64,000 nt of DNA from Spirochaetia bacterium (GCA_963677595.1 OY782041.1:2400001-2464000), one strand, 5' to 3'. Counted from the first letter of the stretch, positions 1,597-13,293 are shown. Numbers and translations are program-made. Notes: generated by a model not told the origin, from the letters alone.

Positions 1597-1934
1597 TTGC
1601 TGCGTTCCAGCTCTCCTATCTGGGCTGGTTCGCAGCTGAATGGATTGAAGGGCGAGACCCTCCGAGGATTCCGGTCCCGGAGCCGGAGGGCTATATCGAG
1701 GGGAAGATGATTGCAGGCTTACGAACTTCTTTGTTCGTCAGTCTGTATGGGATATGGCATGACTATCATGTCCTCCAGGTCCTTCCCCACGGGAAAGGGA
1801 CTCTCGATGAGAGACCGGTAGTGATCCGATGGATCAAACGATTTGAAGCAGAACTTGCCTCGGTGCAGAGGTGGGAGAGACAAAGAGAAAAGGAGAAGCT
1901 GCCGGTATGCCGAGCGGAGCCAAGATACAGTTAG
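1593..1934 (+). CDS. Tail assembly chaperone frameshift extension (gpT part of gpGT, about 228 aa fusion)
   Basis: The -1 frame is open from 1593 (LIAAFQLSYLGW...) into the ORF 1707..1934. Confidence 0.75.
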   Translation: MIAAFQLSYLGWFAAEWIEGRDPPRIPVPEPEGYIEGKMIAGLRTSLFVSLYGIWHDYHVLQVLPHGKGTLDERPVVIRWIKRFEAELASVQRWERQREKEKLPVCRAEPRYS

Positions 1935-4900
1935 TCATCGATGCTGACAGCAAACGCGCTGAAGCCAACCTGAAAGCATTTCAGGCCGAGGCGAAATCAG
2001 CAGGAGCTTCTGTATCCAAACTTGACCAGGTTGCCAGTGCAAGACATCTCGAAAAATTTGAGGAACGACTCTCACGCAATGCAAAAGCGGCAAAGTACTT
2101 CGGCGGGGAGACTGCTGCCCTTGAAAAAGAGCAGCAGCTCCTTCGTCGTGAAATCGAACGGCTTATCAGGCAGGGGATGGACCCGCTGGACTCTACGGTC
2201 ACAAGGCTGAAGAGCCGGTATGACAGCAACTCGGTATCACTGCAGAAACTTACCTCAGCAAATAGAGCCTACTCAGCGACGATGAAGACTGCTTCAGCAG
2301 TAACGGGAACCTTCATGCGGACCGTGCTCCCATTCGTGGGCGTGACTGCTGCAATCAGTTCTGCGGTCTCCATGATCAGGGACTCGGGGGCAGCTTTCGA
2401 GGAATCGGAAGCAAGAGCCCAGAAATTTGCGATCACCTATGAGGGGATCACGGATCTTGCAACCGAGCGGGTGAAGAAGCTTGCAGATACTTTCAACTAC
2501 GCTGACAGCACCATGATGGGTATCCTCGCAGAGACCGGGGACCTGCTGACCGGTTTCGGCTTGGCAGGAGTTGAAGCACTGAATCTCACTGAGAAGGCTG
2601 CCTATCTTGGGGCAGCACTGGCGAAGATGAACCCGAATATCGGGGACGCTGCAGCTGCGACTTCAGACCTCACCAAGCTCATGAGCGGTGAAGGTGAGTC
2701 AATGAAGAAGTGGGGTGTCATTGTCAGGGACTCGGCTGTCCAGGCAAAGCTCCTCGAGCAGGGGCTGACCAGGCTTACCGGGGAAGCACTCCTTCAGGCC
2801 CAGGCACAGGCACGTCTCGAGATCGCCTACAGCCAGAGCAAGAATGCCCTCGCGAATGTCTCCTCTGAAACCGTCCTCGCTCTTGATGTTGCCAGGCGCT
2901 ATGATGAGGCCTGGAAGGAACGAAAGGAGATTATCGGGGAAGCGACTACCAATTTCTTCACCCCGATCAAGCTGAAGATCGCCGAGCAGATCGAAGCCTG
3001 GAATGACGCGACCCAGGCAAAGAAGAACTATGATGCTGCCCTCGCCGGAGATCCCACTGCAGACCTGACAGCAGCCATTGCCAGGCAGCAGGAGAAGGTT
3101 GATGAACTCTATCAGGATCTTGAGAGCTATGCGAATCCCGACAATCTTGCCAAGAAATGGTTCTATGGCGGAGCTGACTGGATTCGGGAAGCCGTCGGCG
3201 GGGATACGATTGTCGAGAGTGTCCTGGAGAAGATCAAGGCAGAAGAAGGGAAACTCCAGCAGCTTAAAGATCAGCTGGCTGAGCAGACAGCGGAGCGGAG
3301 TACCGCTTCCACCATTGAAAGCAGCATTGCCAAGTACCAGGCGAGCCATGAAGCTCTTGAGAAGACGAATGCAGCAATCGAATCCCAGTTCTCGGCAATC
3401 GACCGACTCTCTGAAGCGAATGAGAAGGCAGGAGTCACCTTTGATTCTTTCACCGAAAAACAGCTTGCTGCCAGGAAGGCTTTGACTGAGTTAGTTTCCG
3501 GTGGAGTGATTAACACGGAACATCTCGATGAATTCATCGGTACTTATCGGGAATTCCTCGCTGAGGTGGAGAAGAAGCCTGCAGAGACTCCTACAATTGA
3601 TTTCTCCTCCCTCACTACAGAGCTTGATGCCCAGCTCACTGCAGTTGATCAGCTTCAGGCTGCATACCTCCGAGCAGGTAGTGAGTTTGACGGGTTCACC
3701 AAGAAACAGGCTCAGGTTCAGAAGGGTTTCGAAGCCCTGGCAACCAGCGGAGCTGACACAGAAATCCTTGATGCCTTCATTGCCAAGTACCGAGAGTTTC
3801 TAGCCCTCAGTGAAGGGGAAAACGGGGACCTGCCGCTCACGAGCGGGGAAGCTTTCTCTGCCTACCGGAGTGAACTCGATGCTGAGATCCTCTCTATTGA
3901 TAAGCTCTCAGCTGCCTATAGAAAGGCAGGGATCGAGTTTGATTCCTTCGAGCGGAAACAGCAGGCTGCCCGGAAACTCCTGAATGAAGTAGTCTCTTCC
4001 GGCTCTCTCGATACCGCCGATCTTGATCGATTCATTGGAGCCTACAAGGAATTCCTCGCTGATCTCCCTGAGGGTGGAGCATCCCTCCCTGCGGTCTCTT
4101 TCTCTGATATGAGTTCTGAACTCTCTGACCAGATCACCTCTATCGAACAGATGGCAGCAGCCTATGAACTGGCTGGTGGGGAGTTCGATGCATTCAATGA
4201 GAAACAGGCTGCCGTGAAGAAGACCTTCGAGGAACTTATCCAGGCAGGAACTGATACCGAGTTCCTGAAAGGATTCATTGCCCAGTATAGGGAATTCTTG
4301 GAAGTTGGGGAGAAAACATCAAGTATTGCTGAGGTCCTTTCTTCCGTTGATGAAGCTGCGTTCAACCTGAGAAATCAGTATGCCCGCATGGGGATCGAGC
4401 TTTCTGAAACAGAGAGTAAGACTAAGGTTCTTGAAGAGAAACTGGCAGCACTCGCGGCGACCGGGGAATATACCGAGTGGGAGCTCTATCAGATCGAGCA
4501 GACTCTGAAGGACCTGAAAGCAGCCTCTGATGAGACGGCTTCAGCCTGGGACAGCCTGGCTGATTCTATGACCTCAGCCTTAAGTGGTTTCCTCGAGGAT
4601 GCGATCGGTTCCCTCGGTTCCGGTGAGTTTGATCTCTCGGGTGCAGCAGAGTCTGCGATTGATACGGTGATCGGCGGGGCAGCGGATGCCGCTATGGTTG
4701 CCTTCCCTCAGTTTGCTCCCCTGATCGCTCTCGGTGAAGGTGCCATCAAGGGACTGAACAAGGCGATCTTCGATACGATCTCGGCAACCAGCGAAGCCAA
4801 TGATCTCATTGAGGAACAGCATGCAGCAATCACTGAGTTGTTTGCCGATGTGCTCGACCTGGAGACTGAGCTTGCAGACCAGAGAACAGAAGCGATCTAT

Positions 4901-5521
4901 GAACAGATGGAGCTGCTGGCAACGCAACATGATCTGGAGATGGAGATTCTCCGGGATCGCTGGGAGCATGGGGAGCTTACCGGGGAAGATTATTTCTCCC
5001 AGGCTATGGCTGCTAATATCTCCTATCAGGAGACAGAGGATTCCTATGATAACCAGTCCCAGCTGATCGAAGGTGTGCAGGGAACAATCAGCGATCTCCA
5101 GGACGAGCTGAATGGACTTTCCGGCTGGACGAAGTTCTGGACCCGAGCTGATGAGAAGCTTGAGGCTGAGATTGATAAGTACGAGAAACTCCTCGCAGCG
5201 ATCGCCTCGATGGATGGACTCTCTGATGCTGAAGTAGCTGACCTCGCAGAGACCTACGGGATCACCGTACCCGGTGCTGCCCGGGGAGCTGACTTCATTA
5301 CCTCGGGTCCCATGCTCATGGCAGTAGGGGATAACCCCGGTGGAAAGGAGAGAGTGCAGATCTCACCGATCACCAGCAGCAATATTCATGGACCCCAAGG
5401 GACGGATGGACAAGCGATTCATATCACGATCACCGGGGATGTGTACGGGGTGGATGATCTCTATGCCCGGCTCGATGCTGCCGGAAAGCGGCTGAAGAAA
5501 CTGGGGAGGATTGCCGGATGA
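1907..5521 (+). CDS. Tail tape measure protein
   Basis: About 1200 aa, Ala/Glu/Lys-rich helical; ATG 1907 after AGGAG; C-terminal ARGADFITSGP...VGDNPGGKERV motif typical of tape measure C-termini; internal repeats. Confidence 0.88.
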   Translation: MPSGAKIQLVIDADSKRAEANLKAFQAEAKSAGASVSKLDQVASARHLEKFEERLSRNAKAAKYFGGETAALEKEQQLLRREIERLIRQGMDPLDSTVTRLKSRYDSNSVSLQKLTSANRAYSATMKTASAVTGTFMRTVLPFVGVTAAISSAVSMIRDSGAAFEESEARAQKFAITYEGITDLATERVKKLADTFNYADSTMMGILAETGDLLTGFGLAGVEALNLTEKAAYLGAALAKMNPNIGDAAAATSDLTKLMSGEGESMKKWGVIVRDSAVQAKLLEQGLTRLTGEALLQAQAQARLEIAYSQSKNALANVSSETVLALDVARRYDEAWKERKEIIGEATTNFFTPIKLKIAEQIEAWNDATQAKKNYDAALAGDPTADLTAAIARQQEKVDELYQDLESYANPDNLAKKWFYGGADWIREAVGGDTIVESVLEKIKAEEGKLQQLKDQLAEQTAERSTASTIESSIAKYQASHEALEKTNAAIESQFSAIDRLSEANEKAGVTFDSFTEKQLAARKALTELVSGGVINTEHLDEFIGTYREFLAEVEKKPAETPTIDFSSLTTELDAQLTAVDQLQAAYLRAGSEFDGFTKKQAQVQKGFEALATSGADTEILDAFIAKYREFLALSEGENGDLPLTSGEAFSAYRSELDAEILSIDKLSAAYRKAGIEFDSFERKQQAARKLLNEVVSSGSLDTADLDRFIGAYKEFLADLPEGGASLPAVSFSDMSSELSDQITSIEQMAAAYELAGGEFDAFNEKQAAVKKTFEELIQAGTDTEFLKGFIAQYREFLEVGEKTSSIAEVLSSVDEAAFNLRNQYARMGIELSETESKTKVLEEKLAALAATGEYTEWELYQIEQTLKDLKAASDETASAWDSLADSMTSALSGFLEDAIGSLGSGEFDLSGAAESAIDTVIGGAADAAMVAFPQFAPLIALGEGAIKGLNKAIFDTISATSEANDLIEEQHAAITELFADVLDLETELADQRTEAIYEQMELLATQHDLEMEILRDRWEHGELTGEDYFSQAMAANISYQETEDSYDNQSQLIEGVQGTISDLQDELNGLSGWTKFWTRADEKLEAEIDKYEKLLAAIASMDGLSDAEVADLAETYGITVPGAARGADFITSGPMLMAVGDNPGGKERVQISPITSSNIHGPQGTDGQAIHITITGDVYGVDDLYARLDAAGKRLKKLGRIAG
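3440..4310 (+). repeat. Four 82-84 aa repeats in the tape measure protein
   Basis: FDxF..KQ...D.FI..Y(R/K)EFL motif starts at 3440, 3686, 3938 and 4184 (spacings 246/252/246 nt). Confidence 0.85.
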
Positions 5522-7245
5522 TTCAGTTATTCCTCTACTTCCCTGACCTCACTGCTCCGATGGATATCTCTCACCTGGTGAGAGCAAACAGCTTCTCTAT
5601 GACCCGTAATCTCTACAATGAGAACTGTGAGAGTGTCATCGATACCTGCTCGGTGGAGCTGAAGTATGATCAGCTTCTCGTGGCCCGGATCATGGCTGCA
5701 CCAGCGAATGAGAAAATCCTCTGCAAGGTATACAACACAGATGAGACTCCACTATTTTCTGGGTATATCGCTCCCTCACTGGACCTCAGGAAGACGAAGC
5801 AGGTTGAGACGATCTCCCTGGAGATCCGGGACGATTCCTGGAAACTCGATCTTCCACTCTCCTCAGACTTCCAAAGACCGGCTTCAATTGCTGACCCAGA
5901 GGTAACGGTACGATCAGTCTACGAAGCGCTCCTTCTGGAAGCCGGGTATGACTCGCTCTCTATTGCAGCGGACGGGATTGCTGCAGCTGAGACGATCCAG
6001 ATGGTCAGTGTGGAAGCCGAGAAGTATACCTACCGGCAGCTGCTTGATTCTATCCTCAGGGATCATGGCTATGTGTTCAGCCTGAACAGTGAGGGACAGT
6101 TCTTTCTGTACCAGTGGAACCGTGATACCTATATCCCCTATGCCGTGATCGATCAGCAGCTCTCCACGGTGGATGCCTTTGAGATCTCGAAGGAGGATAC
6201 CTCATCAGACGGGATTAAACTGACTTGGGCAGGGTTGGAAACTCTGGAGGAGGTCCGCCTCTATACAGCAAATCTCCCGGTTGGGACCGATACAGCTTCC
6301 TCAGGAGTGAGCATCCTTCCTGACCGGTACTACCCGGAAGACGGGGATGTGATAGACACCTTCCAGACATTCCAGACCGAGTGGCTCGATGTTGCTTATC
6401 AGTCAAGAAAGACGAGGGTGAAGAATGAGGATATCACTCTCATTACTACAGAGAACCATAGACTCTCTACGCTCTCGGAGGCGGGAGTCTCTGTATTCAA
6501 GCAGAGCTTTGGGAAACACCAGGCACAGATCCTCTTCCAGAACTCTACCGAATCAGCTCAGAAGCTCTATGTCTTTGAGATTTACGGGAGAGCACTCTTC
6601 CGGTCTTCGATCAGGGAGACGGTGATACCTGCAGGAGCAGTGGACCCAGCAGAAGAGAGCAGTGAATTCGTCTTCTCCCAGAACACTGCAGAGAAGCTTG
6701 CAGCAGGACTCTACCGGAACCAGCGGTACGGGAATATCCTGTACCGCTTCACTCTCAGGGAGCAGCTGGTTGCCGTCGGGGATGTGGTATCACTCAGGCA
6801 GAGTGATCCTGCTCTCGATACTTTGGCAGTAATCACCAGTGAGAACTGGACGGACGGAGTGAACAGCTATCGGTATACGGCAAGGGGGGTGTCTTCCTTC
6901 GGGGAGCTTGAAGTGATTACAACCGCCTACCAGGCGGCGAAAGCAGGGAAGGGAGAAAAAGGGGAGGCTGGTGCTGCAGCAGTGAACTTGATTGTGGTCT
7001 CTGACCAGGGAAATATCTTCCGGCCAGCGCTGACCGACACGACCCTCGAGGCGAGAGTCTATCAGGACGGAGAGGAGATCACGGCTTCTTACGAGGCTTC
7101 CCGGTTCCGCTGGACCCGCTCCTCCCTTGATAGCACTGCAGATGCAATCTGGAATTCGGCTCACTACTCGGTGGGTACGAAGACCCTGCATATAACTGAT
7201 GAAGATGTTGAAAGCAGAGCGACATTCTTCTGCGAACTGATATAG
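5518..7245 (+). CDS. Tail tip/hub (Tal-like) protein with a short collagen linker and a C-terminal Ig-like domain
   Basis: Overlaps the tape measure stop (ATGA); GKGEKGEAG; GNIFR..TTLEARVYQDG..FRWTR..KTLHI..ATFFCELI. Confidence 0.7.
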   Translation: MIQLFLYFPDLTAPMDISHLVRANSFSMTRNLYNENCESVIDTCSVELKYDQLLVARIMAAPANEKILCKVYNTDETPLFSGYIAPSLDLRKTKQVETISLEIRDDSWKLDLPLSSDFQRPASIADPEVTVRSVYEALLLEAGYDSLSIAADGIAAAETIQMVSVEAEKYTYRQLLDSILRDHGYVFSLNSEGQFFLYQWNRDTYIPYAVIDQQLSTVDAFEISKEDTSSDGIKLTWAGLETLEEVRLYTANLPVGTDTASSGVSILPDRYYPEDGDVIDTFQTFQTEWLDVAYQSRKTRVKNEDITLITTENHRLSTLSEAGVSVFKQSFGKHQAQILFQNSTESAQKLYVFEIYGRALFRSSIRETVIPAGAVDPAEESSEFVFSQNTAEKLAAGLYRNQRYGNILYRFTLREQLVAVGDVVSLRQSDPALDTLAVITSENWTDGVNSYRYTARGVSSFGELEVITTAYQAAKAGKGEKGEAGAAAVNLIVVSDQGNIFRPALTDTTLEARVYQDGEEITASYEASRFRWTRSSLDSTADAIWNSAHYSVGTKTLHITDEDVESRATFFCELI

Positions 7246-7262
7246 ATAAGGAGAACAATAAT

Positions 7263-8309
7263 ATGGCAGTTTCAGTTGGACAGATTACGATTATGGATTA
7301 TAACGATGCGCTGACCCTTACCGGGTTCATTTCATCGAACTTACCGAAGACTCAGCGGTACTCGGCAGATACCGGAACCTTCACACCGGACTGGGGCAGC
7401 ACCTCTCTGGTACTCACCCCGAGCCTCTTCATTTTGGGAAGCGGTACTGACAAGATCACTGACTCGGCAGTGCAGTCAGTCTCCTGGCAGCGCAAGCCCT
7501 CGGACTCAAGTGTCTTTTCGGCACTCACCTCCGGGGAAGCACTCTCGGGAGCAAAGAGTCATATTCTCACCGTTTCAGCGAACAAGTTGACCGGCAGTAT
7601 CAATGCTATTGAGTACCTGTGTACGATCACCTACCTCGATAGTGCTACCGGACTGAACCTCACCTACAAGATCAGTATCAACCTCTCGAAGGTGATCGAC
7701 GGGAATAATATCGCGGTGGCTGCGGTCCATGCTCCGAGCGGAAATGTGTTCAAGAATTCAGAGCCCACCTCTCTTTCAGCAAAGGCAGAGCTCTACCGGG
7801 GAGCTACTCTCGATACCACTCTCCTTTCTTACCAGTGGTTCAAGTATGTTCCCGGCAATGCTGATGAAGGGGCAGGAGCCGACTGGGATCTCCTGGCAGG
7901 CCAGACCAGCAATACCCTTGCGGTAACTCCTGCGATGGTGGATGGCCTGCAGCAGTTCAAGGTGAAGATCACCGACAATGATGCCTCTTCTCCCACCAAC
8001 GGAGATTCCTTCTATGATGTGATAGCCTTCACCGATATGACCGATCCCGTCCAGGTGGTGATTGAATCAACTGCAGGAACGGTCTTCAAGAATGGGGTAG
8101 GGACTACCGATCTTTCATCCAAGCTCTTCCAGAATGGAGTGGAGATTGATGCTGGAGGGACGGGGTACACCTATACCTGGACGATCACCAACAAGGACGG
8201 GAATGCCCGGACCTTTGCTGATGCCTCTTCCTCGAAGACGGGAAAGACTATCTCGGTGGGAACCAGTGATGTGGATGTGAAATCGACGATCACCTGCTCA
8301 GTGAGCTAA
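7263..8309 (+). CDS. Tail fibre/structural protein with three Ig-like domains
   Basis: RBS AAGGAG; Ser/Thr-rich; repeated GxVFKN...YxW...T(L/I)xV pattern. Confidence 0.7.
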   Translation: MAVSVGQITIMDYNDALTLTGFISSNLPKTQRYSADTGTFTPDWGSTSLVLTPSLFILGSGTDKITDSAVQSVSWQRKPSDSSVFSALTSGEALSGAKSHILTVSANKLTGSINAIEYLCTITYLDSATGLNLTYKISINLSKVIDGNNIAVAAVHAPSGNVFKNSEPTSLSAKAELYRGATLDTTLLSYQWFKYVPGNADEGAGADWDLLAGQTSNTLAVTPAMVDGLQQFKVKITDNDASSPTNGDSFYDVIAFTDMTDPVQVVIESTAGTVFKNGVGTTDLSSKLFQNGVEIDAGGTGYTYTWTITNKDGNARTFADASSSKTGKTISVGTSDVDVKSTITCSVS

Positions 8310-8319
8310 AAGAGGAACC

Positions 8320-10041
8320 ATGAGCCTGATTACCAAGAACCAGATTACGATCGTCAATGTCGATGACGGAGCTCCTGGAAGCCCTGGGGAACCAGGGCCC
8401 GCCGGTCCCCGGGGAGCCTCCTCGGTCGGTCTCGGCCTGAAGATGAATTACTCAACCTTTACTGCCGTGAATCCGGGAGAGATCTATTTGCATGGCTTCA
8501 CTGATGCTGGAGATCCCGCTGATGTGGATGGCTTCATCTACTACCAGGATACCAAGCTCACGGTGGCGAAGAGGATGATCAATCCCAATGCAGTGATTGA
8601 CGGTTTTCTGGTACTAGAGGTTGCTACCGGGTATGCCTATGTAGCAGCCTATGATTACCTCGCGAACCAGTTCAAGCTCAGGGATACTTCCTACGGGAGG
8701 GAAGGGTATGTGATTGATGCTGCCGGTTGGCTCTGTATCGGCAGGATGAAGAATGATGACGTTGAGAATACTTCTTCTGCGATCCTGTATGAAAGGGCAG
8801 TTGATCTTGGTGCAGCACTGCGAACGGTACTGAGCGAAGTAATCTTCCAGAAGGCAGATGTTACCCAGGCAGAATTCGATTCCCTGCTGCAGTATACTCA
8901 GACTCAGTTCTTCAGTCGGTTGGCAGTGAGTAGTCTGTTCGTGAATGACCTGGTGGGAAACACTGCATTCATTGACTCCCTGATCTCAGAGGAAGCATTT
9001 ATCAACGATGCGACGGTGAGGAAGCTGGTGATCGAGGAGACGGTTGACGGGGTAGTGTACACGATCAGGATCGACAAGGATCACGGCATTGAGCTGACAG
9101 TTGACGGGGTGACGAAGTTTCATGCCAGTCCCACCGGTTCTCTCATTGCCAGGGATGCTTCACTGATCAATTCCTCGGTATCGGGGATCTTCACCTCGCC
9201 GGAGTTTTCCACCCAGAAGGCGGGATCAGCCGGGTCCACCAGCTATTCGAAAACCTTGGGGGACATCTACAAGACCATAGGCTACTTCTACACCCTGAGT
9301 GAATACATGCTGAATAATCCTTCAGCATCCGGTCTTTCCGGACAGTTCGGTTCCTACAGCTTTTCAGAAGTTGTCTACTACAATGGCGGGTCCCGGTCTT
9401 TGTATGCACTGGCAGGAGATTTTGTATCGAACGGGACTCTGTATATCATTCGGCAGTGTGAAGCAGATCCGTTTCCACCTCTCATGACGACCGCGGAAGA
9501 CTTGGGAGCAGTCTATGAAACAGTACCAGCCTCCTTTGTCGCCAATGTTGCTGATGACGGAGTGACCCTCTGGAACAACAGTACTGATGCCTTTGTCCAC
9601 TTTCTCTGCAGTGATCTGATCGCTCAGTTTGCAGCACTGCCGGTGGGGACCTCGATGCCGTTCACGGGAAGCTTTGCGATCACCTATGATCCGAGCGCCT
9701 TCTTCAATTACATAAGCGGTCCCACGATGGAGAGTGTCTCGATCACCTCCACAACCTCCTCGAAGTATTCACTCCTACTGAGCAGCACGGCTATAGAGAT
9801 CTATGATCCAAGTGGTGTATTTGTCGTTTCCATCAATGCTGCAACAAGAGCCACCTCCTGCGTGGTGAATATCTCTGTAGAGAGTGTGAAGGAAGGGATC
9901 AAGGTGAAGAACATCATGCCTACCTCTGATAATGCCTACAAGATAGGGGAGACGAACTCCAGGTTCACTGAAGTGCACAGTGTGGAGTTTCATGGAACCG
10001 AGGTATTCGCAACTACGGTACACGGGGCGGTATTCAACTGA
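8320..10041 (+). CDS. Tail fibre / receptor-binding protein
   Basis: Gly-X-Y run GAPGSPGEPGPAGPRG; AFIDSLISEEAFIND shaft-like repeat; Ser/Thr-rich C-terminal half. Confidence 0.7.
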   Translation: MSLITKNQITIVNVDDGAPGSPGEPGPAGPRGASSVGLGLKMNYSTFTAVNPGEIYLHGFTDAGDPADVDGFIYYQDTKLTVAKRMINPNAVIDGFLVLEVATGYAYVAAYDYLANQFKLRDTSYGREGYVIDAAGWLCIGRMKNDDVENTSSAILYERAVDLGAALRTVLSEVIFQKADVTQAEFDSLLQYTQTQFFSRLAVSSLFVNDLVGNTAFIDSLISEEAFINDATVRKLVIEETVDGVVYTIRIDKDHGIELTVDGVTKFHASPTGSLIARDASLINSSVSGIFTSPEFSTQKAGSAGSTSYSKTLGDIYKTIGYFYTLSEYMLNNPSASGLSGQFGSYSFSEVVYYNGGSRSLYALAGDFVSNGTLYIIRQCEADPFPPLMTTAEDLGAVYETVPASFVANVADDGVTLWNNSTDAFVHFLCSDLIAQFAALPVGTSMPFTGSFAITYDPSAFFNYISGPTMESVSITSTTSSKYSLLLSSTAIEIYDPSGVFVVSINAATRATSCVVNISVESVKEGIKVKNIMPTSDNAYKIGETNSRFTEVHSVEFHGTEVFATTVHGAVFN

Positions 10042-10679
10042 TGGCAACGGCAGGAAGCACAATAGGAAAAGCTGGATTCTCAACCGGGGTGGTGTTCTCG
10101 AAGTCCTGGGGGAGCGGGTCTCTCGTTGCCTCGGGCTCTGGGACCTCATACCGGCACGTCTACTTTGTAGCCTCGGTGTTTACCTTTCGAGCCTATATCA
10201 AGGACGTGTGGATCGGGTACGGGCTTAATGCCTATGAGTTGCAGTACTGGGGAGGCTCTTCCTGGGTGACCGAGCACCGGCAGACGAATATCGGGGACAA
10301 GGACTCTTACATGTTCGAGATCAATATCACAACAAGTGAGTCTGCCTCGAATGGGAAATATCGGGCGAACAGTGACAGGGTCTGGTGGAGGATGAGGATC
10401 AACAATACCAATGATTATTACCCTTCTTATAACACGGGGGAACTGAAGATCTATGGGCTGGGAGCTCATCTGGATTATGACAACCGGATCAAGGGGAAGT
10501 ACATCAAAGGGTATCTGAAATCCTCCCAGGGGGTTCCGTATGTGCACAGCAGTTCATCGGTGTATGACGTGTCTGTGACGAATTCCTGGGTGAGTGATCT
10601 GTACAACAATACCAGCCTGAAAGGCACGGTGATATCGGCGGGGGTTCCCGAGTATGCCGTGCTGCCTGATAACTACTAA
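10041..10679 (+). CDS. Hypothetical phage protein (tail-associated)
   Basis: TGATG coupling to the fibre gene; beta/aromatic-rich, 212 aa. Confidence 0.55.
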   Translation: MATAGSTIGKAGFSTGVVFSKSWGSGSLVASGSGTSYRHVYFVASVFTFRAYIKDVWIGYGLNAYELQYWGGSSWVTEHRQTNIGDKDSYMFEINITTSESASNGKYRANSDRVWWRMRINNTNDYYPSYNTGELKIYGLGAHLDYDNRIKGKYIKGYLKSSQGVPYVHSSSSVYDVSVTNSWVSDLYNNTSLKGTVISAGVPEYAVLPDNY

Positions 10680-10691
10680 AGGAGAAAAAGT

Positions 10692-11084
10692 GTGGGAATA
10701 TTAATGGATGTAGATAAGAGTCAGAATGCTCTTTTTCATCAGTTTACTGAAGCCTACTGGGCGATTGAGAATGTAGCATTCGGCTCTGATGGAGCGGACG
10801 GCTCAGTAATGGTCTCTTTCAACTTCTCTGCCTATCCAAGCAGGGAATCAAAGAAGGCGATGGAGCAGCATGTCACACCGGTATCGAACGGAACCTTCGG
10901 AGGACCGGTCATGAATATCGTGGAATCAACTCTCTATCGGTGGAGCGGAATGTTCCGTGCTTCTGATATCTTTGCAGTGGGTATCCCGGTGCTGAAGGAA
11001 GAGCAGCTGGAGATCCTCTATCCCTTTGTGAAGACCTATCTGAACCTCACCGAAGCGGTAGATGTCCTGGAGGAGATAGAGTGA
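10692..11084 (+). CDS. Hypothetical phage protein (possible fibre accessory)
   Basis: RBS AAGGAG, GTG start, 130 aa. Confidence 0.55.
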   Translation: MGILMDVDKSQNALFHQFTEAYWAIENVAFGSDGADGSVMVSFNFSAYPSRESKKAMEQHVTPVSNGTFGGPVMNIVESTLYRWSGMFRASDIFAVGIPVLKEEQLEILYPFVKTYLNLTEAVDVLEEIE

Positions 11085-11473
11085 CTGACCCGATTGTAAA
11101 TGAAAAGAATGTGCTGCAGGTAGTCCAGGCGATGTATGAGAACGTGAAGTCAAACCAGCACCGCCTTGATACTACTGAACCGATCCTCAGGAAGATGAGT
11201 GAGCAGGTGAACCGACTCAATACTCTCCTTGTCGATAACGGGTATGCGAAGGCCGTAGAAGACTCAGCCCAGGAGATCAAGAAGCTGCGGAGTGAATTCA
11301 CTGTCTACAGTTTAACCCGGGAAGATTCCTGCCCGACGATGAAAAGGATTCAGGAACAGCGGCTACTGGATAGAGAAAAGAAGCATTGGAGTGTGGCTGT
11401 TATCAAGGTAATAGCTGCCGGGATCGGGGCAGTTTCCACCCTGATCATCATCTTTGAGAAAGTTGCAGTGTAG
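11081..11473 (+). CDS. Coiled-coil protein with a C-terminal TM helix (lysis-cassette associated)
   Basis: Hydrophobic WSVAVIKVIAAGIGAVSTLIIIF at the C-terminus; precedes the holin. Confidence 0.55.
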   Translation: MTDPIVNEKNVLQVVQAMYENVKSNQHRLDTTEPILRKMSEQVNRLNTLLVDNGYAKAVEDSAQEIKKLRSEFTVYSLTREDSCPTMKRIQEQRLLDREKKHWSVAVIKVIAAGIGAVSTLIIIFEKVAV

Positions 11474-11481
11474 GGGGAAGC

Positions 11482-11943
11482 ATGAGTTGGTTAGGAAAAA
11501 TATTTGGAGCGAAGGAAACTGCAGAAGCTGCAGGAACCGTAGTTGAATCGGTAAGTAACGGGATCACCAACCTTGCAACTGGTATCAGGTCGGCGATCAC
11601 CGGAGAGATGAGTCCAGATAAGAAAGCGGAGCTTGAAAAGATTGCCCTGGAAGCAGAGAATCTGCAGAAGCATACCCAGCTCGAGATCAACCTGGCAGAA
11701 GCTCGGCACCAGTCAGCCTTTGTGGCTGGCTGGAGACCGTTTATCGGGTGGGTCTGCGGGCTCTCCCTTGCAAACAACTATATCCTCAGACCCTGGGCGA
11801 TCGCTGTTTTATCGGCTTCTGGGAAAGTCTTCGAGTTCCCGGTAATTGATCTCTCACTGATGATCCCGATCATGACCGGGATGTTGGGACTGGCAGGTAT
11901 GCGAACTTATGAGAAGAAGCAGGGAGTGACGGGGAATCATTGA
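11482..11943 (+). CDS. 3TM-type holin (GTA_holin_3TM-like)
   Basis: WRPFIGWVCG and MLGLAGMRTYEK motifs characteristic of this family. Confidence 0.85.
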   Translation: MSWLGKIFGAKETAEAAGTVVESVSNGITNLATGIRSAITGEMSPDKKAELEKIALEAENLQKHTQLEINLAEARHQSAFVAGWRPFIGWVCGLSLANNYILRPWAIAVLSASGKVFEFPVIDLSLMIPIMTGMLGLAGMRTYEKKQGVTGNH

Positions 11944-12048: not shown

Positions 12049-13293
12049 ATGACACAAAACTCCTATCTGAAAGTAATTGAAGAGAACCTTCAAGAAGGCC
12101 TTTACATAGTTGATTTTGAGGCGAACCTTGTATACGCAAATGGAAGATTAGCTGAAATCTTAGGGTATGCTAGCGAAGAAGAAATTCTTGGTTTGAATGT
12201 CTTGGATTTTGTTAGCAGCGATTACCATGAGCAAATATGTGATTTGTTCGCGGAGACAATAAGCTCGAAGGCTCTCAAAAAAAATATAGTATTTAAAATA
12301 GATAAAAAAAATGGAGACAAAAATTTAATCCAACTAAACTTAGGTGGGATAAATCATCTTGGAATAATTGGTTCTCTAAGGGAGCTTCCAGAAGGGGAAG
12401 AAGCATGCAGCAATACTTCACATAGTGGTGCGCTCTATAAGACGATTGTCGAATTATCACCGGATGCAATCATGATATGTTCATTAGATGTTCAAATTCT
12501 GGACATTAACAACGCAGCTATAAATCTTTATGAATGTAACGATAAATTCGATGCCGTCGGGCACTCGGTATTGGAATTTATTGATCCCGATGAAATCGAG
12601 CATCTTAGAACCGTTTTTGAGGAAACTATTCTTTCTGACTACACTTTGCGGGCAGAAGCAAAATTGGTTACAAAAAGAGGAAAGCCCTTCATTGGCAAGA
12701 TAAGTGCGAAAAGAATCCCTGCAAATAATAAATTTGGATTTGTCATTGTAGTTCTGTCCCGAGATATTACAGAACAAAGACTGAAAGAACATAATCTGGA
12801 AGCTCAGGCAACAATTGATCCACTAACGAACCTGTTGAATCGCAGAGGGTTTCAAAATCTTGCAGATCAAGAAATAAAACATGCACAGAGAAGACGAATG
12901 AATGCAGTTCTCGTATTCATTGATATAGATAAAATGAAATTCATAAATGATTTGTATGGCCATGAATCGGGAGATCAGGCGATCCAAATTGTAGCAACTG
13001 CATTGAAAACCTCCTTCAGAAACTCTGATTTATTAAGTCGGTGGGGTGGTGATGAATTCCTCGTTTTAGCGCTTGATACTGAGGTTGAACATGCTGCAAA
13101 CATGATTGAAAAAATAAATTGGCACCTACAAAAAATTGTTGAAGAAAAGGATATCCCGTATGAGGTGTATGTCTCTGCAGGCTGCTCTCATTGTGATTTG
13201 CAAGGGGGATTCGAACTTCATAAGGCAATCTTGTTAGCAGATATGAATATGTATAAAGAAAAGGTGTTTAAAAAGAAAAGGATTTCAGACTAA
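12049..13293 (+). CDS. PAS-PAS-GGDEF diguanylate cyclase
   Basis: DPLTNLLNRRGF, DIDKMKFINDLYGHESGD, RNSD I-site, RWGGDEF. Confidence 0.93.
   Translation: MTQNSYLKVIEENLQEGLYIVDFEANLVYANGRLAEILGYASEEEILGLNVLDFVSSDYHEQICDLFAETISSKALKKNIVFKIDKKNGDKNLIQLNLGGINHLGIIGSLRELPEGEEACSNTSHSGALYKTIVELSPDAIMICSLDVQILDINNAAINLYECNDKFDAVGHSVLEFIDPDEIEHLRTVFEETILSDYTLRAEAKLVTKRGKPFIGKISAKRIPANNKFGFVIVVLSRDITEQRLKEHNLEAQATIDPLTNLLNRRGFQNLADQEIKHAQRRRMNAVLVFIDIDKMKFINDLYGHESGDQAIQIVATALKTSFRNSDLLSRWGGDEFLVLALDTEVEHAANMIEKINWHLQKIVEEKDIPYEVYVSAGCSHCDLQGGFELHKAILLADMNMYKEKVFKKKRISD

What the first reader, a model, noticed from the sequence alone, without database searches (positions are those of the whole stretch)
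6982..8370. Split Ig-like domains across three tail genes: a candidate donor-strand-complemented, pilus-like phage fibre
Seen: the complete Ig-like repeats inside gene B (7263-8309) end with strands E, F and then a final strand: ILTVS..IEYLCTITY..LTYKISINLSKVIDG and TLAVT..QQFKVKITD..FYDVIAFTDMTD. The last domain of gene A (5518-7245) stops right after the F-like strand (KTLHI..RATFFCELI*), and so does the last domain of B (KTISV..KSTITCSVS*). The next gene in each case begins with an orphan peptide matching the missing strand: B starts MAVSVGQITIMDYND and gene C (8320) starts MSLITKNQITIVNVDDG, both with CAGATTACGAT at 7281 and 8341. Each gene has its own RBS, and the next ORF is out of frame. 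Known: chaperone-usher pilins polymerise by N-terminal donor-strand complementation of an incomplete Ig fold. Inference: A (acceptor only, on the tail tip) is the anchor, C (donor only) is the tip adhesin, and B (donor plus acceptor) is a spacer that could homopolymerise. That would give an A-(B)n-C filament of tunable length with a swappable tip. I know of no description of this for a spirochaete phage.
Basis: partly seen in the sequence, partly recalled or inferred. Interest (0 to 1): 0.88.

Follow-up and report, generated by a model that had tools for sequence, protein, structure and literature searches.

The report
Split-Ig joints chain phage tail proteins
Three tail genes of a prophage are cut inside a small immunoglobulin-like fold, so that the first two proteins end one strand short and the next protein begins with that strand; the proteins likely clip together end to end as pilus subunits do, and the middle one may repeat to lengthen the fibre, though neither has been shown by experiment.

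Summary
Observation confirmed. A (hub-like tail-tip protein) and B (phrog_3267, three Ig-like domains) each end after strand F; B and C each begin with the missing G strand. AlphaFold2 leaves B's N-terminus unpaired and domain 3 without G. In a natural B-C fusion the same peptide folds as strand G (pLDDT 92) and completes the Ig. Natural A-B, B-C and A-B-C fusions place the peptide right after F (13 of 14 internal domains). The layout holds in about 150 related loci from spirochaete and Firmicutes phages. Phage DT1's single Tal protein equals phage 7201's A and C joined, so B is an optional insert. Whether B polymerises is open (about 0.42). For: self-compatible ends, phiL47's 280-nm fibre, Tsamsa gp222 among six virion bands. 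Against: single-chain fusions, and null coevolution and codon tests. It is not spirochaete-specific. A phage precedent for cross-protein Ig completion exists (Tuc2009 BppU-BppA, by a C-terminal hairpin), and this scan noted similar joints in other genomes.

The parts
1871..5521 (+). Tape measure protein (context; overlaps the start of A)
   Evidence: PHROG tape-measure matches, weak (E 2e-4, 5e-4); length and position
5518..7245 (+). Gene A, 575 aa: likely Tal/baseplate-hub-like tail-tip protein with a C-terminal acceptor domain
   Evidence: Directly follows the tape measure gene; residues 1-475 resemble Prophage_tail / Sipho_Gp37 clusters by language-model features (score 0.93, a lead only); no solved relative by sequence
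6952..6978 (+). Three Gly-X-Y triplets just before A's acceptor domain (collagen-like linker)
   Evidence: Sequence
6982..7242 (+). A acceptor: Ig-like domain, strands A-F, stops before G (residues 489-575)
   Evidence: Matches B's domain 3 profile (E 7e-15) and the C-termini of several PHROG tail families; 62% identical over 95 aa to the end of an otherwise unrelated hub in a second prophage. Not modelled itself
7248..7253 (+). Shine-Dalgarno-like site AAGGAG of B
7263..8309 (+). Gene B, 348 aa: donor strand + two complete Ig-like domains + acceptor domain (phrog_3267)
   Evidence: phrog_3267 E 1e-95; model; Ig folds by Foldseek and VIA-align
7266..7307 (+). B donor strand (residues 2-15, AVSVGQITIMDYND), predicted G strand for the preceding acceptor
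   Evidence: Unpaired in the monomer model; follows strand F in A-B fusions P0229, P0251, P0141, P0176
7311..7700 (+). B domain 1, complete Ig-like (residues 17-146)
   Evidence: F-G hairpin recovered by coevolution
7710..8039 (+). B domain 2, complete Ig-like (residues 150-259)
   Evidence: best Z 9.8, rmsd 2.4, 84 aligned
8046..8306 (+). B domain 3, acceptor, strands A-F only (residues 262-348)
   Evidence: completed by a cis donor strand in the B-C fusion model
8310..8315 (+). Shine-Dalgarno-like site AAGAGG of C
8320..10041 (+). Gene C, 573 aa: donor strand + collagen-like linker + variable body; likely trimeric distal (receptor-binding) part
   Evidence: No family match; only the first 39 residues are shared with the C of the second prophage, whose linker is Pfam Collagen
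8323..8367 (+). C donor strand (residues 2-16, SLITKNQITIVNVDD)
   Evidence: Same motif follows strand F in B-C fusions phiNIT1 orf1237/P0126, Bp8p-C gp109, P0128, P0256
8368..8421 (+). Six Gly-X-Y triplets after C's donor strand
   Evidence: Sequence
11482..11943 (+). Holin (context; end of the prophage late module)
   Evidence: Pfam GTA_holin_3TM E 6e-14; phrog_3427

Best explanation
A and B each end in an Ig-like domain that lacks its last strand, B and C each begin with that strand, and the separately translated proteins likely join end to end by inserting the N-terminal strand of the next protein into the groove of the previous one, giving a hub-extender-tip tail fibre. Shown: the split at the F-G turn, the identity of the peptide as strand G (natural fusions and the fused model), separate genes, and that B is an optional cassette. 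Inferred: A is a trimeric hub at the tail tip offering three sockets; C is a trimer (collagen-like linker) offering three plugs; B adds about 13 nm per copy (three Ig domains at about 4-4.5 nm, general knowledge); assembly is spontaneous in the cytoplasm, with no dedicated chaperone or usher in this locus. The joint lets hub, extender and tip be exchanged as genes. The number of B copies per strand is the open step: I put one copy and several copies at about even odds (see the first two rivals, which are sub-cases of this explanation).
For: (1) Monomer model: N-terminus unpaired, domain 3 stops at F. (2) Model of natural B-C fusion P0256: the fused peptide forms strand E342-353 at pLDDT 92 although only 2 of 87 alignment rows cover it, while the same protein's free N-terminal peptide stays below 50 (coverage). 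Domain 3 plus peptide then aligns over whole Ig domains (e.g. 6k7o 2-95, Z 8.4, rmsd 2.5, 83 aligned), whereas no top-50 row matched domain 3 alone in the window's B. (3) 13 of 14 strong internal acceptor-type domains, in 10 of 149 representative proteins, are followed within 32 residues by the donor motif; random 32-mers 2.8%. They include A-B, B-C and A-B-C fusions. (4) 147 of 152 upstream genes end in the acceptor and 142 of 150 downstream genes start with a donor; 22 of 24 and 17 of 22 after dereplication at 80%; background 3 of 214. (5) DT1 Tal = 7201 orf35 (1-503, 89%) + orf38 (494-914, 52%), so acceptor-B-donor is an insert in a Tal gene. Phage 1706 has A followed directly by a C that starts with the B-type donor. 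(6) Second prophage in the same genome: unrelated hub and tip, same joints. (7) Precedent: a BppU hairpin completes a BppA Ig in the Tuc2009 crystal structure (PMC4742702 passages).
Against: Coevolution in 301 B sequences (effective about 115) found the cis F-G hairpins but no donor-to-domain-3 signal (mean z -0.37 at the predicted register); this bears only on B-B pairing and has low power. The acceptor profile and donor pattern were built from family members, so the survey counts are partly circular (the neighbours themselves were not selected by similarity). A's acceptor was not modelled, and its hub assignment rests on position and a language-model lead. An AlphaFold model of a fusion shows the cis geometry, not the trans complex.
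Confidence: 0.87

Rival explanations
1. Sub-case 1, fixed chain: the joints are selective, or expression is balanced, so each strand is A-B-C with one B. The fibre is a defined three-part, probably three-stranded structure equivalent to a single long Tal protein.
For: Single-chain A-B-C fusions (P0141, P0176, P0268, P0166) and B-C fusions (phiNIT1, Bp8p-C, P0128, P0256) exist and cannot polymerise B. No direct B-B tandem among 149 representatives (P0166 has two domain-1 copies, separated by other domains). No donor-domain 3 coevolution. No codon or RBS sign of high copy number: B above A in 25 of 45 loci and above C in 23 of 45, while the guessed major tail gene exceeds A in 20 of 28. In the window-type phage the B and C donors share only 4 of 11 core residues and differ at the first inward position (G vs N, L005). 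A trimeric tip needs three strands of matching length (inference).
Against: In many loci the B and C donors are nearly the same (7-8 of 11 in 7 of 20 loci), so B's socket could hardly exclude B's own plug. See also the literature hints under sub-case 2.
Confidence: 0.45
2. Sub-case 2, the first reader's model: B homopolymerises, A anchors and C caps, giving an A-(B)n-C pilus-like filament whose length follows the B:C supply.
For: B carries both ends and stays a separate gene in most of the family (88 of 149 representatives have donor and acceptor). A B-type domain 3 is followed in cis by a B-type donor in P0199, and phage 1706 shows donors are interchangeable. phiL47 has a 280-nm, under-10-nm fibre that distinguishes it from phage 949 (PMC3888941 passages); phiL47 carries acceptor, B and C, while 949's homologous protein lacks the acceptor and there is no B gene. 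One copy each would add only about 700 residues over 949's 1908-aa protein (my arithmetic). The B homologue gp222 is one of six allocated virion bands of Tsamsa, whereas the larger A and C homologues are not listed (PMC3903500 passages; locus).
Against: phiL47's B is deposited in two pieces (7 single-base insertions within about 100 nt against WRP3, most in short base runs; sequencing error is my inference), and its three major gel bands are 31.4 kDa or smaller. gp222 is named only in that paper's discussion. A thin extended fibre also occurs in S. thermophilus phage 7573, which has no B gene in its tail region. Null coevolution and codon tests. No data for this phage.
Confidence: 0.42
3. No complementation in trans: the chains are fused at the protein level by readthrough or frameshifting, or the six-stranded terminal domains are stable as they are and the N-terminal peptides are relics of gene fission.
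For: Fused versions are common. B-C gaps are multiples of three in 16 of 22 dereplicated loci, which readthrough would need. No direct binding evidence.
Against: A-B gaps fall in all frames (9, 5, 8 of 22) and range 2-426 nt; B-C gaps range -1 to 702 nt, and a small gene lies between B and C in Sfi11, 7201, CHPC971, LfeInf and EF1. Both window junctions are out of frame. Each gene has its own SD-like site. The donor is kept at the N-terminus of otherwise unrelated C proteins, which relic sequence would not be. gp222 was identified as its own virion band.
Confidence: 0.1

Closest known systems
Donor-strand complementation/exchange in chaperone-usher pili (FimA, PapA, Caf1; recalled, established knowledge)
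   Same: Ig-like domain lacking strand G, completed by the N-terminal strand of the next subunit; acceptor-only, donor-only and two-ended subunits.
   Different: Cytoplasmic phage proteins without signal peptide; no chaperone or usher in the locus; subunit has three tandem Ig domains that resemble cell-adhesion Ig/Hoc domains, not pilins; the capping tip here is the donor-only protein; polymer not shown.
Lactococcus phage Tuc2009 BppU-BppA joint (crystal structure, PMC4742702, passages read)
   Same: One phage tail-tip protein completes the titin-like beta-sandwich of another, attaching an accessory module.
   Different: There the donor is a 25-residue C-terminal hairpin of the upstream protein; here it is a single N-terminal strand of the downstream protein, and a two-ended middle subunit allows chaining.
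PHROG 3267 'tail protein' (Sfi11 gp373, 7201 orf36, bIL286 orf55, Tsamsa gp222, N-terminal part of phiNIT1 orf1237)
   Same: B is a full-length member (E 1e-95); same gene order and termini.
   Different: Annotated only as tail or hypothetical protein; an Ig-like domain was noted for bIL286 orf55 (PMC3888941); I found no description of the split or the joint.
Extended Tal proteins of S. thermophilus and lactococcal P335 type I phages (DT1 orf18, BK5-T; AlphaFold2 studies PMC9437275, PMC9692632, passages)
   Same: Hub, then an Ig-like domain, then collagen-like linkers and binding modules as a trimer; DT1 Tal is 7201's A and C in one chain.
   Different: One continuous chain with strand G in cis; no B.

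Membership tests
Chaperone-usher pilus | Ig-like subunit lacking strand G | tested here: met
   Model of B ends at F; Ig fold. Predicted, not solved.
Chaperone-usher pilus | N-terminal extension that is the missing strand | tested here: met
   Fusions; fused model.
Chaperone-usher pilus | Extension binds the neighbouring subunit in trans | not testable with these tools
Chaperone-usher pilus | Signal peptide, periplasmic chaperone and usher genes | tested here: not met
   B and C start directly with the donor strand; none of the ten prophage proteins scanned matched a chaperone or usher family.
Chaperone-usher pilus | Homopolymer of the major subunit | tested here: inconclusive
   Indirect tests null or mixed.
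PHROG 3267 tail protein | Full-length profile match | tested here: met
   Residues 1-348 against 3-367 of 369, E 1e-95.
Tuc2009 BppU-BppA-type joint | C-terminal beta-hairpin donor completing the partner's sandwich | tested here: not met
   The donor is a single N-terminal strand.
Tal / gp27-like baseplate hub (gene A) | Hub fold in the gene after the tape measure or Dit gene | tested here: inconclusive
   Position fits; language-model score 0.93 to Prophage_tail clusters with 133-161 shared features; no Pfam, PHROG or PDB match for residues 1-475; not folded.

The most novel reading that the evidence does not exclude
A widespread family of tailed phages of spirochaetes and Firmicutes builds a chaperone-free, pilus-like tail filament A-(B)n-C by donor-strand complementation, with length set by the supply of B and a tip exchanged as a gene cassette. 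This would explain very long thin fibres such as phiL47's 280-nm fibre and give a self-assembling, genetically modular phage filament.
Probability: 0.42. Interest if true: 0.86.

Novelty: new variant of a known kind. Interest (0 to 1): 0.64.

Why it matters
Phage fibre parts are normally joined by trimer interfaces or made as one chain. A standard strand-swap joint between separately encoded hub, extender and tip would explain how unrelated hubs and receptor-binding tips are mixed (seen here twice in one genome), give a function to a large unannotated family (2559 representatives at 50% identity match B's profile at E up to 0.001), and correct models that treat these proteins one at a time. 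Cultured pairs with and without B (7201/DT1, CHPC971/1706, phiL47/949) make it directly testable. If B polymerises, it is a phage-built pilus-like filament.

Tried and rejected
Complex prediction (B domain 3 with B 1-146) was not available: queue full; no verdict. Mean-field coevolution on 301 B sequences: no trans signal, low power. Codon-bias and RBS-strength test for high copy number: null. Sequence search of solved structures: none for B; one chance-level hit for A's profile. Fold searches gave generic Ig matches, and no pilin or solved phage-fibre subunit appeared among the rows shown; this does not exclude such a relative. Paper searches for donor-strand or strand complementation with phage tail terms and for the named phages and adhesion devices returned no description of this joint; the library lacks most subscription journals, and the Basilisk virion paper (Grose 2014) was not held. 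No supplements were read; virion proteomics tables there could bear on B's copy number. Passages of PMC11406892, PMC5371800, PMC6541646, PMC9128512, PMC6145125, PMC5515857 and PMC3952083 gave no fibre morphology for B-bearing phages. phiEF24C gp31 and phage 949 ORF128 did not match the acceptor profile, so they are not counted as fusions. Alignment A2 misplaced the C proteins and was replaced by A4 without them. Rejected: the 11-nt repeat as a regulatory or recombinase site (it only covers the QITI codons); programmed recoding in this locus; spirochaete specificity.
Full report
Observation. They lie in the late module of a prophage: putative tape measure gene (1871-5521), A, B, C, three small genes and a holin, followed by host genes such as GGDEF proteins and RNA polymerase subunits. 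The nearest relative of B (99%) is in a record titled Sphaerochaetaceae, consistent with a spirochaete host. The A-B and B-C gaps are 17 and 10 nt, both out of frame.

What B is. B is a full-length member of phrog_3267. One search found 931 homologues, 210 phage records match it, and 2559 representatives at 50% identity match its profile. The AlphaFold2 model (113 sequences, mean pLDDT 91.9) has three beta-sandwiches. Domains 1 and 2 end in a long final strand; domain 3 stops at the F-equivalent strand; residues 1-18 form no strand. Fold searches give generic Ig matches (LAG3, Dscam, RB49 Hoc; best Z 9.8, rmsd 2.4, 84 aligned, for domain 2), and no top-50 row covers domain 3 alone.

The peptide is strand G. 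Among 149 of the 150 listed representatives (one, P0020, was left out by my id filter), 14 strong acceptor-type domains lie inside a chain; 13 are followed within 32 residues by the donor motif, against 2.8% of random windows. They include A-B fusions (P0229, P0251), B-C fusions (P0126, P0128, P0256) and A-B-C fusions (P0141, P0176, P0268, P0166). In phiNIT1 orf1237 the junction reads KATFLCET-SA-AVGQFTVYD. I folded P0256: the fused peptide forms strand 342-353 at pLDDT 92 with almost no alignment support, the free N-terminal peptide of the same chain stays below 50, and domain 3 plus peptide now aligns over whole Ig domains. This is a prediction of the cis form; the trans complex could not be run.

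The layout is conserved and modular. I examined the window and 174 loci (the best 80 of 406 viral and 79 distinct loci from 95 genomic candidates, plus 15 named phages). Of these, 161 had a B match from its N-terminus and 152 had complete neighbours. In those 152, 147 upstream genes end in the acceptor, 150 B proteins end in it (the two exceptions are B-C fusions), and 142 of 150 next genes begin with a donor by a strict pattern; five of the eight misses look donor-like by eye. After dereplication at 80% the counts are 22 of 24, 22 of 24 and 17 of 22, with 3 of 214 background ORFs. The profile and pattern came from the family, so the counts are partly circular. Gap lengths and frames vary, although B-C gaps are multiples of three in 16 of 22. 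Three natural experiments: DT1's Tal is 7201's orf35 and orf38 in one chain; phage 1706 has no B and its C starts with the same donor as CHPC971's B; and a second prophage in this genome has a close B homologue between a hub that shares only the last 95 residues with A and a tip that shares only the first 39 with C.

How it most likely works. Inferred: A is a trimeric hub (position; language-model lead) ending in three sockets. C has six Gly-X-Y triplets after its donor (Pfam Collagen in the second prophage), so it is probably a trimer with three plugs. B bridges them. Published AlphaFold2 models of the unsplit Tal proteins show a trimer with an Ig domain followed by collagen-like linkers (PMC9437275, PMC9692632; passages, and one section), which fits. 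I put trans complementation at 0.87.

Does B polymerise? For: 88 of 149 representatives keep both ends as a separate gene; B and C donors share 7-8 of 11 core residues in 7 of 20 loci; P0199 completes a B-type domain 3 with a B-type donor; phiL47 (acceptor, B, C) has a 280-nm thin fibre that its authors list as a difference from 949 (no acceptor, no B) (PMC3888941 passages); Tsamsa gp222 is one of six allocated virion bands (PMC3903500 passages). For scale, phiEF24C's 1825-aa gp31 belongs to a 79-nm fibre (PMC3201976 passages) and BK5-T's Tal is modelled at 140 nm. Against: single-chain and B-C fusions cannot polymerise; no B-B tandem was found; coevolution recovered cis hairpins (mean z 2.66 and 1.33) but not donor-domain 3 (-0.37); codon and RBS indices do not set B apart; the window-type B and C donors differ more than most (4 of 11); phiL47's B is deposited broken and no 40-kDa major band is described; phage 7573 has a thin extended fibre without B (PMC5601072 passages). 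I put several copies at 0.42 and one copy at 0.45.

Comparison with what is known. It works like donor-strand complementation in chaperone-usher pili (recalled knowledge) but fails membership: no signal peptide, chaperone or usher. The closest phage precedent is the Tuc2009 baseplate, where a C-terminal BppU hairpin completes a BppA Ig domain (PMC4742702 passages; the lead came from this scan's earlier notes). Ten paper searches found no description of this N-terminal single-strand joint in phage fibres; subscription journals and supplements were not covered. The scan has noted similar split-Ig joints on other genomes (eight notes shown; none by sequence); those are unchecked notes, not evidence.

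Verdict. A real, widespread feature and probably a real assembly mechanism: a new variant of a known kind. Interest 0.64; 0.86 if the polymer is shown.

Noticed in passing
G000:C1 about 530600-535400, minus strand (L177, L179, L181): A second prophage in the same genome carries a close B homologue and the same joints on an unrelated tail-tube, tape-measure, hub and tip set; its holin starts with the same residues as the window's holin.
   Followed up: yes
L085:8113-8286, L086:8113-8286, L090:9422-9595, L091:10410-10583, L004:9104-9256, L095:7129-7302: A 50-57 aa gene sits between B and C in lactic-acid-bacteria phages (Sfi11 orf57 and relatives); absent in the window. It could be a chaperone or length regulator.
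   Followed up: no
L095:6001-7129 (phiL47 orf163/162): The B gene is deposited in two pieces, with 7 single-base insertions within about 100 nt against WRP3; the C gene is also in pieces. Possibly sequencing error.
   Followed up: partly
dereplicated loci: B-C gaps are multiples of three in 16 of 22 loci (many of 9 or 12 nt), A-B gaps are not; this may reflect easy fusion and fission at that joint, or shared ancestry.
   Followed up: no
P0170, P0200, P0213, P0215, P0218, P0238, P0243, P0259; L003:7962-9731; L094:8989-10392: Longer B variants (467-1041 aa) keep the donor and acceptor ends and insert extra domains in the middle.
   Followed up: no
P0141, P0199: Some fused chains end in yet another acceptor domain, implying chains with more than three parts.
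   Followed up: no
L004:7139-7975 (Enterococcus phage EF1): An additional short protein upstream of B starts with a strand-like peptide and ends in an acceptor, while the gene before it holds an internal complete domain: possibly a four-gene chain.
   Followed up: no
window 10041-11943: After C come a 212-aa gene, two 130-aa genes and a holin; no endolysin was recognised next to the holin, and host GGDEF genes follow at 12049.
   Followed up: no
BFVD hits: Structural relatives of B occur in crAss-like and other uncultured phages (for example A0A8S5TKG6, A0A8S5TIZ7) at 11-18% identity; their termini were not examined.
   Followed up: no
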